Source: a virus
Strand: one strand, 5' to 3'
Virus record (IMG/VR): IMGVR_UViG_3300026078_000024
Location: 1-64,000 of that record
DNA: 64,000 bases
Part shown: in pieces, positions 15,802-23,677 of the stretch
Layout of the letters: each line of letters begins with the position of its first letter
Numbering within the stretch: the stretch's first letter is position 1
Notes under the pieces: model-generated
Databases searched by the model: none
Told to the model about the DNA's origin: nothing
Seen by the model: only the letters and a program-made list of their open reading frames with translations
Program-made: the position numbers and the translations under genes

Positions 15802-15817
15802 GATCCCTCCTAGGTCG

Positions 15818-15891
15818 TGGTCCCGGTCGGACTCGAACCGACGCGGACGGAGGTTAAGAGCCTCCCGCTCTGCCAACTGAGCTACGGGACC
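15818..15891 (-). tRNA. tRNA-Lys(CTT)
   Basis: GGTCCCG TA GCTC AGTTGGCA GAGC G GGAGG CT-CTT-AA CCTCC ... GTCGG TTCGAGT CCGAC CGGGACC A; CCA not encoded. Confidence 0.92.
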
Positions 15892-16193: not shown

Positions 16194-16232
16194 GATCGTG
16201 ATTCCTTTCGGTCGGTTGTCGATCGTGGTGGG

Positions 16233-16305
16233 TGCCCGCAGAGGGATTCGAACCCCCGGCCCCCGCGTCCGTAGCGCGGCGCTCTGTCCTCTGAGCTATG
16301 CGGGC
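16233..16305 (-). tRNA. tRNA-Arg(ACG)
   Basis: GCCCGCA TA GCTC AGAGGACA GAGC G CCGCG CT-ACG-GA CGCGG GGGCC GGGGG TTCGAAT CCCTC TGCGGGC A. Confidence 0.92.
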
Positions 16306-18330: not shown

Positions 18331-18608
18331 GATCTTGTACCTCTCCGGGTGAGAGACCGGCCCCCGCCGGGGGGACAACGGGGACCGGTCGTACGGGACC
18401 GGTCAACGCCGGTCGTGCGGGACGGAGTCACCTCCGCCCTGGTACCAACCGCCCTCGGAGTTGCCGCCGCATGCGGCGCAGACACCGAGGGTCAGGATGG
18501 TGATCGCGACCCAGGCCAGAACCATGACCATGAACCGCTTCGTGATCATCTGACGGGCGATCGTGCTGTGCATGTGATCCCTTTCGTCCGTGGTGATCTT
18601 GTGGTGCG

Positions 18609-18745
18609 TACCCCCGGCCGGATTCGAACCGGCGCGGTCACGGCGGAATGCCGAGACGATCCCGGCTGCCGTGCCATGGGAGGGGCCTGGCGTTCCTCTC
18701 CCGTCCCGTTGTTAGGCGGCGCTCTGACCACTGAGCTACGGGGGC
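18609..18745 (-). ncRNA. 137-nt tRNA-shaped RNA: canonical acceptor, D and T arms, with an ~86-nt structured domain replacing the anticodon/variable arms
   Basis: GCCCCCG TA GCTC AGTGGTCA GAGC G [86 nt] GCCGG TTCGAAT CCGGC CGGGGGT A. Confidence 0.75.
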
Positions 18746-18746
18746 A

Positions 18747-18970
18747 TGGTGGGCGCTCTTGTCGGCGTGCGCCCGTCGGCCGTCCGGCGCGGGAGTCGGG
18801 AACCTCCCCGTATCTTCGAGACGGTTCGACCATACACCGGGCCGGGCCGAACCTGCGGAACGGGTCCGAGCCGGGGCGTGGCTGGCGTCTCCCGGGTTTT
18901 CACCCGGAGTTGGACCGGTTGTATCAACCCTGCCCTGCGCGGCCTGGAGACGGCCGCACAGAGGATCCGG
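18747..18970 (-). ncRNA. Putative structured RNA ending in ACCA directly upstream of the tRNA-shaped RNA
   Basis: Series of hairpins (CTCTGTGCGGCC/GGCCGCGCAGGG; GGTTG/CAACC; CCGGGT-GAAA-ACCCGG; GGGAG-GTTCCCGA-CTCCC; GGGCGC/GCGCCC-ACCA); no credible ORF. Confidence 0.5.
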
Positions 18971-18972
18971 AT

Positions 18973-19071
18973 CTAGTACGGAAGTCGGATCTTGCCGGAA
19001 GGGGACCGGTGGTCCTCGGGGACCGGTTCGGACGGTCGGCGGGTCTGTGTCTGGACCTTGACCTGTTTCAT
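18973..19071 (-). CDS. 32-aa peptide MKQVKVQTQTRRPSEPVPEDHRSPSGKIRLPY
   Basis: RBS AAGGAAG plus GATCATG; overlaps the upstream stop; below the ORF-track cutoff. Confidence 0.5.
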   Translation of the reverse strand: MKQVKVQTQTRRPSEPVPEDHRSPSGKIRLPY

Positions 19072-22857: not shown

Positions 22858-23004
22858 GATCGGCTCCTGTGTCCGTATCTGCGGGTGGGTGATGATGCCA
22901 GCCACGCGGCCCGACTCGAACAGGGGCCGTACTCAAACGTGGACCAGATCAATGGCAACGCGCGCATCCTCGAACGGGCCGGAACCCGTTCTCCGCTGTA
23001 GCGC

Positions 23005-23077
23005 GTGGCTGGCATCATCAGGACCGGGGCACCACCCCCGGCCGACGGCAGGCCCTCCCGGGCGGCCGTTTCGCCAT
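23005..23077 (-). ncRNA. Type II hammerhead ribozyme, copy A (predicted GUC cleavage between 23044 and 23043)
   Basis: UGGC GAAA CGGC..GCCG UC^ GGCCGGGG GUGGUG CCCCGGUC CUGAUGA U GCCA GCCAC: full core, three stems, loop I GUGGU pairs with the 3' tail GCCAC. Confidence 0.85.
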
Positions 23078-23579: not shown

Positions 23580-23606
23580 GATCGGCTCCTGTGTCCGTAT
23601 CGGTTC

Positions 23607-23677
23607 GGCTGGCATCATCAGGACCGGGGCACCACCCCCGGTCGACGGCAGGCCCTCCCGGGCGGCCGTTTCGCCGT
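23607..23677 (-). ncRNA. Type II hammerhead ribozyme, copy B (predicted GUC cleavage between 23644 and 23643)
   Basis: CGGC GAAA CGGC..GCCG UC^ GACCGGGG GUGGUG CCCCGGUC CUGAUGA U GCC; two substitutions relative to copy A. Confidence 0.8.

What the first reader, a model, noticed from the sequence alone, without database searches (positions are those of the whole stretch)
18609..18745. tRNA scaffold carrying an ~86-nt structured domain in place of the anticodon arm
Seen: acceptor stem GCCCCCG/CGGGGGT+A, U8A9, D arm GCTC-AGTGGTCA-GAGC and T arm GCCGG-TTCGAAT-CCGGC are all intact. The middle holds three helices: CCG-CCTAACAA-CGG, GGGAG..CTCCC, and CACGGC..GCCGTG enclosing GCCGGGA/TCTCGGC. It is too short for a group I intron or tmRNA, and too well paired to look like decay. 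Inference: a natural tRNA-scaffolded RNA matured by RNase P/Z, perhaps a decoy for anticodon nucleases or a synthetase/ribosome ligand.
Basis: partly seen in the sequence, partly recalled or inferred. Interest (0 to 1): 0.75.

Follow-up and report, generated by a model that had tools for sequence, protein, structure and literature searches.

The report
Arginine-tRNA-derived RNA module in phage
This gene in a Streptomyces-type phage encodes a conserved tRNA-shaped RNA, descended from an arginine tRNA, that can probably no longer read codons; its tail matches a small RNA element, found in no catalogue or paper searched, that sits between genes on Streptomyces plasmids, so it most likely marks where a long transcript is cut.

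Summary
On the minus strand of 18609-18745 there is a 137-nt RNA gene with intact acceptor, D and T arms. It scores 41.2 bits against the Rfam tRNA model (threshold 29). 87 nt lie between the D arm and the T arm.

It is not a random insertion. Two related metagenome contigs carry the same gene, and their changes rebuild the extra helices rather than break them.

It descends from tRNA-Arg(CCG). The acceptor stem and the anticodon stem ACGGC/GCCGU match the Streptomyces tRNA-Arg(CCG). The CCG anticodon is locked in a helix by a 16-nt extension. A 47-nt two-hairpin block sits between nt 26 and 27.

No excision gives a normal anticodon arm, and the only anticodon-like loop differs in length between relatives. 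I therefore read it as a non-decoding tRNA-like RNA, not an intron-bearing tRNA.

New here: its 3' 49 nt belong to a covarying "minihelix" family (acceptor-like stem plus T arm). That family matched no Rfam model in the four loci scanned and lies between co-oriented genes in Streptomyces conjugative elements and plasmids.

Best mechanism, inferred only: a cis-acting RNase P/RNase Z cut site in the operon. A trans-acting tRNA-mimic role is not excluded. The scan has noted other tRNA-shaped phage RNAs elsewhere, but not this one.

The parts
18609..18745 (-). The 137-nt tRNA-like RNA gene (G1 at 18745, discriminator A73 at 18609). No CCA is encoded.
   Evidence: Rfam RF00005 at 41.2 bits, model positions 1-71. 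Fold. Conserved in L154:7222-7360 and L156:2649-2785.
18720..18745 (-). tRNA frame, 5' part: acceptor 5' strand GCCCCCG, U8 A9, D arm GCUC-AGUGGUCA-GAGC, G26.
   Evidence: Sequence. The acceptor strand is identical to Streptomyces tRNA-Arg(CCG). 21/23 identical to the phage's own tRNA-Arg(ACG) through GCCGC. Invariant in the three relatives.
18673..18719 (-). Insert 1 (47 nt) between nt 26 and 27. Hairpin 1 is CCG-CCUAACAA-CGG. Hairpin 2 is GGGAG.GG-loop-CC.CUCCC. A short linker follows.
   Evidence: Folds. L154 has one extra C in the hairpin 1 loop. L154 rebuilds hairpin 2 as an 8-bp helix GGGAGAGA/UCUCUCCU, including G-C to A-U. No similar sequence in the Streptomyces loci.
18640..18672 (-). 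Anticodon arm of tRNA-Arg(CCG) origin. The stem is ACGGC/GCCGU. The loop is extended to 23 nt (AGCCGGGAUCGUCUCGGCAUUCC), so that CCG and G37 form the 5' strand of a 7-bp inner helix capped by UCG.
   Evidence: Stem identical to host tRNA-Arg(CCG) ACGGC-CUCCGGA-GCCGU. Inner helix. In L154 a G.U becomes G-C, and a pair lost at one end of the outer helix is regained at the other.
18609..18657 (-). 3' 49 nt, homologous to the Streptomyces 'minihelix' family: GUCUCGG-CAUUCCGCCGUGACCGC-GCCGG-UUCGAAU-CCGGC-CGGGGGU-A.
   Evidence: Covariance model R1 matches 18606-18661 at 52.7 bits, E 1.7e-8, over the full model. The phage's normal tRNAs score only 13-14 bits.
18746..18969 (-). Conserved ~224-nt non-coding block directly upstream. 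It ends in the hairpin GGGCGC..GCGCCC followed by ACCA and U(-1).
   Evidence: Part of the 401-nt stretch 18575-18975, which has 96% mean column identity in three relatives, against 83-88% for the larger L154 alignment blocks. No Rfam family.
18403..18573 (-). Downstream 56-aa small membrane/lipoprotein-like ORF. Its ATG lies 35 nt after the tRNA-like 3' end, behind an AAAGGGA ribosome-binding site.
   Evidence: GC3 of 0.86. Translation. Conserved in L154 and L156.
18970..19071 (-). Upstream 33-aa ORF. Its ATG overlaps the stop of the preceding gene. It is the first element of the conserved cassette.
   Evidence: Alignment. Upstream of it L154 is non-homologous, so the conserved cassette starts here.

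Best explanation
The gene encodes a conserved, non-decoding tRNA-like RNA that descends from tRNA-Arg(CCG).

Anatomy. The parts that tRNA-processing enzymes read are kept almost unchanged: the 7-bp acceptor stem, A73, U8, the D arm with G18 and G19, the T arm with UUCGAAU, and the G15/C48 positions. The decoding end is disabled. The anticodon CCG and G37 are paired into a 7-bp helix by a 16-nt extension. Positions 32-33 are AG (GG in L154) instead of CU. A 47-nt two-hairpin block is inserted between nt 26 and 27.

Relatives. The 3' 49 nt are a member of a tRNA-Arg(CCG)-derived minihelix family (acceptor-like stem plus T arm). That family sits between co-oriented genes in the transfer and spread operons of Streptomyces conjugative elements and plasmids.

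Mechanism (inferred, not shown). The RNA acts in cis in the minus-strand transcript. RNase P cuts before G1 and RNase Z cuts after A73. This separates the upstream leader and 33-aa ORF from the downstream 56-aa ORF, much like tRNA punctuation. It releases a stable ~137-nt RNA that cannot enter translation. The two hammerhead ribozymes about 4.3-5 kb upstream on the same strand show that this phage has other self-cutting RNA elements between genes.
For: Shown here:
- The tRNA frame is intact and significant.
- The acceptor stem and the anticodon stem are identical to Streptomyces tRNA-Arg(CCG).
- No single excision gives five anticodon-stem pairs together with nt 26 and U33.
- The only loop with a canonical C32-U33...A37 pattern (CUAACAA) gains a base in L154.
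- Two relatives keep the gene. The 67 tRNA-homologous positions differ at 2 sites from L154. The 70 inserted positions differ at about 12 sites, and those changes are pair-preserving.
- The 401-nt stretch 18575-18975 is 96% identical, against 83-88% for the larger L154 blocks. Upstream of it L154 is non-homologous, and downstream of about 18330 it diverges sharply.
- Model R1 hits the 3' part at 52.7 bits.
- The minihelix family has 54 distinct copies, 98.9% of cells paired and 7 of 12 pairs with compensatory changes; 0 of 500 shuffles reach this.
- Family copies lie beside DUF2637 and FtsK/TraB-type genes. All 36 are followed by a co-oriented ORF within 200 nt. In L166 a 67-aa ORF is bracketed by two copies.
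- Like the phage's three ordinary tRNAs, the gene encodes no CCA and is followed by a short spacer and a ribosome-binding site.

From established knowledge: an acceptor/T-arm minihelix is a sufficient RNase P substrate, and CCA-less bacterial tRNA precursors are cut by RNase Z.
Against: No RNA data were available, so neither transcription nor cleavage is shown.

A plain tRNA or a plain minihelix would serve as a cut site. The processing model therefore does not explain why two extra structured arms are kept by compensatory change.

Only three sequences of the full-length form exist, and two of them are nearly identical. Covariation for the inserted arms rests mainly on one comparison.

The role of the minihelix family in Streptomyces elements is itself inferred from position alone.
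Confidence: 0.45

Rival explanations
1. A trans-acting tRNA mimic. After release by RNase P/Z, the ~137-nt RNA binds a host or phage factor that recognises the tRNA body, such as a tRNA-targeting defence protein, a modification enzyme, the CCA-adding enzyme or EF-Tu. The extra arms serve as a handle or as a block to ribosome entry.
For: The frame is under much stronger constraint than the inserts: 2 of 67 against about 12 of 70 differences from L154. The inserts are kept as helices with a conserved loop motif GCCAGG, which a mere cut site would not need. Other tRNA-shaped phage RNAs with replaced anticodon ends are on record as earlier notes of this scan (unchecked leads) and as YrlA (PMC4201824).
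Against: No partner is identifiable. The phage has no TROVE/Ro60 protein, and the YrlA model does not match this gene. The anticodon is buried, so a decoy for anticodon-loop nucleases is unlikely. The D loop has U, not A, at the position I number as 20 (my reading); A20 is an ArgRS identity element from my own knowledge, so ArgRS binding is doubtful.
Confidence: 0.25
2. A decoding tRNA with intron(s). One version is tRNA-Val(AAC) with a 64-nt intron after nt 37, as ARAGORN draws it. The other is tRNA-Arg(CCG) with two intervening sequences (47 nt at 26/27 and 16 nt after G37). Either would be spliced by an unknown cut-and-rejoin route.
For: ARAGORN in intron mode calls Val(AAC) at default stringency. 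CGG is the phage's most used arginine codon (28.8 per 1000) and no intact tRNA-Arg(CCG) is encoded. Many other phage tRNAs in IMG/VR carry 30-60-nt inserts, and some give perfect tRNAs once the insert is removed. The U-to-C change in L154 improves ARAGORN's exon-exon stem from G.U to G-C.
Against: ARAGORN's product lacks nt 26, has a C.C mismatch in a 5-bp stem and has a 6-nt variable loop. GUU, the codon for AAC, is rare at 4.4 per 1000. L154 has an extra base in that loop, which would give an 8-nt loop or a different anticodon. The Arg(CCG) version needs two excisions and leaves AG or GG at positions 32-33 instead of CU. There is no group I intron match and no RtcB.
Confidence: 0.05
3. A decaying tRNA-Arg(CCG) pseudogene, or a recombination relic such as an attP-like site or the product of imprecise excision from a tRNA-Arg(CCG) target. 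It would have no RNA function and would be conserved only because the relatives are recent.
For: tRNA-Arg(CCG) looks like an integration hot spot in Streptomyces: pairs of 3'-end copies lie 11-22 kb apart in several genomes, and an integrase gene sits next to one such copy in G001. The anticodon-loop region looks like a partial duplication. Only close relatives of the full-length form were found.
Against: The cassette is much better conserved than its flanks. The changes in L154 are concentrated in helices and preserve pairing. The frame is nearly invariant. No tyrosine or serine recombinase was found in the phage. The T arm differs from the host tRNA-Arg(CCG) T arm, so there is no long identity segment for integration.
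Confidence: 0.12

Closest known systems
Streptomyces tRNA-Arg(CCG), e.g. L215:1503-1575 (minus strand)
   Same: Identical acceptor stem GCCCCCG/CGGGGGC with A73 (the 3' strand ends in U in the window and L156, giving G1.U72). Identical D stem GCUC/GAGC. Identical anticodon stem ACGGC/GCCGU. CCG followed by G at the anticodon position. A UUCGAAU T loop.
   Different: The odd gene has 47 nt inserted between nt 26 and 27. Its anticodon loop is 23 nt with CCG base-paired. It has AG instead of CU at 32-33. The D loop has U, not A, at the position I number as 20. Its T stem is GCCGG/CCGGC instead of GCAGG/CCUGC. Its variable loop is 5-6 nt instead of 4.
Streptomyces 'minihelix' element found here (model R1; loci L157, L159-L192, L195-L209). 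It matched no Rfam model in the four loci scanned (L161, L165, L177, L186). I found no description of it in the three literature searches made.
   Same: The 3' 49 nt align over the whole model at 52.7 bits. They share the derived connector CAU(U/C)(C/A)C between CGG and GCCGUG. Both sit a short distance upstream of a co-oriented small ORF on a mobile element that carries Streptomyces conjugation-type genes.
   Different: In the family, the 5' strand GCCCCGG pairs with the 3' acceptor strand, giving a stand-alone 49-nt minihelix with no D arm. In the phage RNA that strand pairs with the anticodon region instead. The 3' acceptor strand pairs with a true tRNA 5' end 130 nt upstream. The minihelix conformer is 20-28 kcal/mol less stable.
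YrlA / bacterial Y RNAs (Rfam RF02553; Chen et al. 2014, PMC4201824)
   Same: A non-decoding RNA with a tRNA-like D/T/acceptor module. The family is known in actinobacteria and mycobacteriophages, and the M. smegmatis member is cut by RNase P and receives CCA.
   Different: The topology is opposite: YrlA ends lie in the Ro60-binding stem. The RF02553 model does not match this gene. No TROVE/Ro60 gene is in the phage.
Phage T5 RNA1/RNA2 and other tRNA-shaped phage RNAs noted earlier in this scan
   Same: As those notes describe them: a tRNA frame with a structured module at the anticodon end, encoded by a phage, with unknown function.
   Different: Known to me only from unchecked notes. No sequence comparison was made here. 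The module here is not similar to any phage record: INPHARED and IMG/VR searches were negative.
'Enigmatic' introns in Lak megaphage tRNAs (Devoto et al. 2019, PMC6784885)
   Same: Phage tRNA genes interrupted by short, conserved inserts with no ribozyme core.
   Different: For the Lak genes a tRNA type, anticodon and intron were predicted after re-running tRNAscan with eukaryote settings. Here no excision restores a normal anticodon arm.

Membership tests
tRNA (Rfam RF00005), as a structural frame | Cloverleaf frame with acceptor, D and T arms, scoring above the family threshold | tested here: met
   41.2 bits against a gathering score of 29, model positions 1-71
Decoding tRNA | 5-bp anticodon stem closing a 7-nt loop with U33 and a purine at 37, directly or after one excision | tested here: not met
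   All excisions were enumerated. The best has 4 of 5 pairs, no nt 26 and a 6-nt variable loop. The Arg(CCG) parse has AG/GG at 32-33 (sequences).
Decoding tRNA | The same anticodon in close relatives | tested here: not met
   The loop CCUAACAA becomes CCUCAACAA in L154
tRNA with group I intron | Group I catalytic core within the insert | tested here: not met
   No intron family appears even at E up to 10. The insert is only 64-87 nt.
tmRNA | tRNA-like domain without a D stem, plus a tag reading frame | tested here: not met
   ARAGORN with -m finds no tmRNA in the genome. A full D arm is present.
YrlA / Y RNA | Match to RF02553 and a neighbouring Ro60 (TROVE) gene | tested here: not met
   No RF02553 hit at this gene. 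No TROVE gene in the genome.
Streptomyces minihelix family (model R1, defined here) | Full-length match to the covariance model | tested here: met
   18606-18661 (minus strand) at 52.7 bits, E 1.7e-8. L154 scores 56.4 and L156 scores 51.3.
Streptomyces minihelix family (model R1, defined here) | A local 7-bp acceptor-like helix forms and dominates the fold | tested here: not met
   6 of 7 pairs are possible, but enforcing them costs 20-28 kcal/mol relative to the cloverleaf-like fold
Streptomyces minihelix family (model R1, defined here) | Position between co-oriented genes on an actinobacterial mobile element | tested here: met
   The phage gene lies 35 nt before a co-oriented ORF. In the family, 36 of 36 copies are followed by a co-oriented ORF within 200 nt.
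RNase P / RNase Z substrate | Cleavage at G1 and after A73 | not testable with these tools
   Only the sequence prerequisites are seen: a 12-bp acceptor/T stack, U at -1, and no encoded CCA

The most novel reading that the evidence does not exclude
The phage RNA and the Streptomyces minihelices together form an undescribed class of tRNA-Arg(CCG)-derived RNA modules. Actinobacterial plasmids, integrative conjugative elements and at least one phage lineage would use them to punctuate operons through the host's tRNA-processing enzymes. The full-length phage form would have gained a second, trans-acting role as a tRNA mimic whose extra arms bind a specific factor.
Probability: 0.25. Interest if true: 0.7.

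Novelty: new variant of a known kind. Interest (0 to 1): 0.55.

Why it matters
If the module is cut by RNase P and RNase Z, bacterial mobile elements would be using tRNA punctuation of operons. That strategy is textbook for mitochondria and little documented in bacteria.

It would also give a function to a conserved Streptomyces RNA element that matched no Rfam model where tested. That element sits inside conjugation operons of plasmids used in antibiotic-producer genetics.

The phage form is a natural example of a tRNA frame carrying two foreign structured arms. This is relevant to tRNA-scaffold RNA engineering and to how tRNA genes turn into non-coding RNAs.

The result also warns annotators. 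ARAGORN's intron mode calls this gene tRNA-Val(AAC), which is almost certainly wrong.

Tried and rejected
Searches that found nothing:
- INPHARED phages by DNA and by neighbour protein.
- IMG/VR by neighbour protein, by an exact 20-mer and by the minihelix pattern.
- The metagenome protein scan.
- The first genome contigs pattern.

A design error of mine: the first IMG/VR tRNA-with-insert pattern used a gap too short to match this gene. The corrected gap returned mostly adjacent tRNA pairs and no relative.

The contigs of the neighbour-protein homologues P0001, P0003 and P0004 could not be fetched. The L154 contig has the same length (10,933 nt) as P0002's longest contig and is probably the same one.

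Readings rejected:
- Val(AAC) with an intron.
- A YrlA/Ro60 handle.
- RtcB-based splicing encoded by the phage.
- An attP site.
- A two-state switch between the cloverleaf and minihelix folds.
- Kinship with the insert-bearing tRNA L155/L025, which shares the D and T arms but folds differently and not significantly.
- ARAGORN's 138-nt-intron call on L197, which is weak and was not pursued.
- Homology of the downstream small ORF to ORFs that follow minihelices in Streptomyces.
- Similarity of insert 1 to any Streptomyces locus.

Full report
WHAT IS THERE. The window is the first 64 kb of a 92,877-nt IMG/VR virus record with 65% G+C. The feature lies on the minus strand of 18609-18745. The minimum-energy fold gives exactly that architecture at -68 kcal/mol, with z = -2.0. 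Rfam's tRNA model matches end to end at 41.2 bits against a threshold of 29. ARAGORN misses it by default. In intron mode at default stringency it is one of only four calls in the genome; the others are Lys-CUU, Arg-ACG and Pro-CGG. No other Rfam family matches the gene or the 224 nt upstream of it.

RELATIVES. INPHARED and IMG/VR hold no relative. A pattern scan of JGI metagenomes found two: L154 (10,933 nt) and L156 (3,353 nt). They are about 84-88% and 91% identical to the phage overall.

L156 differs from the window gene at 2 of 137 positions. L154 differs at about 14. Only 2 of those lie in the 67 positions homologous to a tRNA. Both are U-to-C: one turns G1.U72 into G1-C72, and the other changes the anticodon-stem 3' strand from GCCGU to GCCGC.

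The other roughly 12 differences lie in the 70 inserted positions:
- Hairpin 2 is rebuilt from GGGAG.GG/CC.CUCCC into an 8-bp helix GGGAGAGA/UCUCUCCU. This includes a G-C to A-U double change and a former bulge that is now paired.
- The inner helix of hairpin 3 changes a G.U pair to G-C.
- The outer helix loses A-U at one end and gains G-C at the other.
- The hairpin 1 loop gains one C.

The per-sequence folds keep the same six-helix layout. The insert is therefore neither recent nor random. With only three sequences, two nearly identical, this remains a small sample.

ORIGIN. A covariance model built for another purpose (see below) hit one locus in about half of 151 Streptomycetaceae genomes at about 39-42 bits. 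The four loci inspected are all the host tRNA-Arg(CCG): GCCCCCG-UA-GCUC-AGGGGAUA-GAGC-A-ACGGC-CUCCGGA-GCCGU-GUGC-GCAGG-UUCGAAU-CCUGC-CGGGGGC-A.

The odd gene has the same acceptor stem, D stem and anticodon stem (ACGGC/GCCGU), and it has CCG-G after that stem. Its loop has grown to 23 nt, so that CCG and G37 pair with UCUCGGC. A 47-nt block (hairpins 1 and 2) sits between nt 26 and 27. The 5' 30 nt also resemble the phage's own tRNA-Arg(ACG), 21 of 23.

NOT A DECODER. I enumerated every single excision that would leave a normal-length region between the D and T arms. None gives five stem pairs. The best is ARAGORN's Val(AAC): it lacks nt 26, has a C.C mismatch and has a 6-nt variable loop. Its codon GUU is rare in the phage, at 4.4 per 1000. 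L154 has an extra base in that loop. The Arg(CCG) reading would need two excisions and would leave AG or GG at positions 32-33.

CGG is the phage's commonest arginine codon, at 28.8 per 1000. A former decoding tRNA-Arg(CCG) is therefore a plausible ancestor. The phage encodes no RtcB.

THE MINIHELIX FAMILY. A weak BLAST hit in a Streptomyces plasmid led to a pattern taken from the 3' part of the gene. That pattern matched 36 places in 34 loci of GTDB genomes, nearly all Streptomyces.

The copies share a 49-nt element: GCCCCGG, a 17-nt connector (CAUCaCGCCGUGAGGGC), the T arm GCCGG-AUCGAAU-CCGGC, then CCGGGGC-A. This amounts to a 7-bp acceptor-like stem plus a T arm, with no D arm and no anticodon arm. 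Four of these loci scanned against Rfam gave no match to any family.

Model R1, built from 31 copies, recovered 64 matches, 54 of them distinct. Of the paired cells, 98.9% form standard pairs. Seven of 12 pairs show compensatory changes, and none of 500 shuffles reaches this. That alignment is fitted to the model, which favours pairing, but the slid-partner control is clearly lower.

Distribution and context:
- About 20 of 151 sampled Streptomycetaceae genomes have strong copies.
- Nine Streptomyces plasmids carry it, with up to four copies each.
- No INPHARED phage or IMG/VR contig carries it.
- Copies lie beside DUF2637 and FtsK/TraB-type genes, that is, in conjugative transfer and spread modules.
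- All 36 are followed by a co-oriented ORF within 200 nt.
- Several loci hold two or three copies. In L166 two copies bracket a 67-aa ORF.

R1 matches the phage gene's 3' end (18606-18661) at 52.7 bits, E 1.7e-8. The phage's ordinary tRNAs score 13-14 bits. The phage RNA and the family share the derived connector CAU(U/C)(C/A)C, which the host tRNA lacks, so they share an ancestor that was already not a normal tRNA. In the phage RNA the minihelix conformer is 20-28 kcal/mol worse than the cloverleaf-like fold, so I do not propose a switch.

CONTEXT. The gene is part of a conserved cassette on the minus strand:
- a 33-aa ORF (19071-18970)
- a 224-nt non-coding block ending in a hairpin plus ACCA and U(-1)
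- the tRNA-like gene
- a 35-nt spacer with a ribosome-binding site
- a 56-aa membrane/lipoprotein-like ORF (18573-18403)
- a G+C-rich hairpin

Aligned, the stretch 18575-18975 is 96% identical in the three relatives. The sequence upstream of the cassette in L154 is unrelated, and the next gene downstream diverges sharply.

The consensus fold predicts a long-range helix between 18908-18900 and 18596-18587 that encloses the block and the tRNA-like gene. L156 carries four substitutions there, and all of them preserve pairing, including one U-A to C-G double change. The phage's Lys and Arg tRNAs are likewise each followed by a small ORF. Two type II hammerhead ribozymes lie between genes about 4.3-5 kb upstream on the same strand. 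The phage has no tyrosine or serine recombinase, no TROVE protein and no RtcB by Pfam.

MECHANISM. Three things are shown: the anatomy, the descent from tRNA-Arg(CCG), and the kinship with an intercistronic element of Streptomyces mobile DNA. The rest is inference.

The frame is kept because RNase P and RNase Z must recognise it. From established knowledge, an acceptor/T-arm stack of 12 bp is a sufficient RNase P substrate, and CCA-less precursors are trimmed by RNase Z. Cutting would separate the upstream and downstream cistrons. The buried anticodon and the altered D loop would keep the released RNA out of translation.

This does not explain why two extra arms are maintained. A trans-acting tRNA-mimic role is therefore the main rival. 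An intron-bearing decoder and a functionless relic are less likely, for the reasons given above.

NOVELTY. tRNA-like non-coding RNAs of phages and bacteria are known as a kind; YrlA is the clearest case (PMC4201824). Short inserts in phage tRNA genes have also been reported (PMC6784885). Earlier notes of this scan list further tRNA-shaped phage RNAs, but none on this sequence or on the minihelix. I found no description of this RNA or of the Streptomyces minihelix in the three literature searches made. I file it as a new variant of a known kind.

LIMITS. There are no expression data. Only three full-length sequences are available. The host is inferred as Streptomyces or a close relative from the minihelix distribution and from distant homologues of the neighbour protein on actinobacterial plasmids. 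The function of the minihelix family is inferred from position alone.

Noticed in passing
L157, L159-L192, L195-L209 (Streptomyces genomes and plasmids); homologous stretch at window 18609-18657 (-): A 49-nt tRNA-Arg(CCG)-derived 'minihelix' (7-bp acceptor-like stem, 17-nt connector, T arm). It has strong covariation: 54 distinct copies and 7 of 12 pairs compensatory. It lies between co-oriented genes of conjugative elements and plasmids, often in several copies per element. Four loci scanned against Rfam gave no match.
   Followed up: partly
window 18900-18908 (-) with 18587-18596 (-): A predicted long-range helix UCCGGGUGA / UCACCACGGA encloses the upstream non-coding block and the tRNA-like gene and ends just before the ribosome-binding site of the 56-aa ORF. 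All four substitutions there in L156 preserve pairing, one by a U-A to C-G double change. A competing local hairpin (CUCCGGG-UGAAAA-CCCGGGAG) also changes in a pair-preserving way in L154.
   Followed up: partly
window 18746-18774 (-): The upstream block ends in the hairpin GGGCGC-12 nt-GCGCCC followed by ACCA and one U, immediately before G1 of the tRNA-like gene. An RNase P cut would therefore leave an upstream RNA with a tRNA-like ...ACCAU 3' end.
   Followed up: no
window 18970-19071 (-): A conserved 33-aa ORF (MKQVKVQTQTRRPSEPVPEDHRSPSGKIRLPY). Its ATG overlaps the stop codon of the preceding gene. It marks the 5' edge of the conserved cassette; upstream of it L154 carries unrelated sequence.
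   Followed up: partly
window 15817-15891, 16231-16305 (-); genome 64469-64542 (-): The phage's three ordinary tRNAs read its commonest codons: Lys-CUU reads AAG (30.1 per 1000), Pro-CGG reads CCG (39.8 per 1000), and Arg-ACG reads CGC/CGU. CGG, the commonest arginine codon, has no intact phage tRNA. Lys and Arg are each followed by a small ORF.
   Followed up: partly
G001:C1:6327922 and 6345039, and similar pairs in G060, G084, G101, G102, G110, G150: Pairs of hits 11-22 kb apart, of the same length and score as the verified tRNA-Arg(CCG) 3'-end matches (the pairs themselves were not inspected). In G001 an integrase gene lies next to one copy. tRNA-Arg(CCG) looks like a common integration site for Streptomyces integrative elements.
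   Followed up: partly
L004-L078 (IMG/VR): About 60 phage tRNA genes with a perfect 7-bp acceptor stem carry inserts of roughly 30-60 nt in the anticodon-arm region. In some (for example L014 and L004) the insert lies between nt 29 and 30, and its removal gives a perfect Lys(UUU) or Gln(UUG) anticodon arm. Several share a CAGCAAC motif near the 3' edge of the insert.
   Followed up: partly
L155:8768-8893 (-), with the same sequence in L025: Another insert-bearing tRNA-like gene with the same D and T arms as the window gene but an unrelated ~75-nt middle. It lies on a 532-kb metagenome contig and on a 46.8-kb IMG/VR contig. Its fold is not significant (z = -0.3).
   Followed up: partly
window 23003-23076 and 23603-23676 (-): Two type II hammerhead ribozymes, at 48.7 and 52.6 bits, lie 600 nt apart on the same strand as the tRNA-like gene. 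At least one is conserved in L154.
   Followed up: no
L164, L167, L168, L172, L177, L182, L188, L189, L196, L197: In one subgroup of Streptomyces loci the minihelix is preceded by a conserved ~110-nt non-coding stretch (...GGGAGGGCUUAGACCGAAAGGUCACGUCUCCAUACGCCU...). The minihelix may there be the 3' end of a longer RNA.
   Followed up: no
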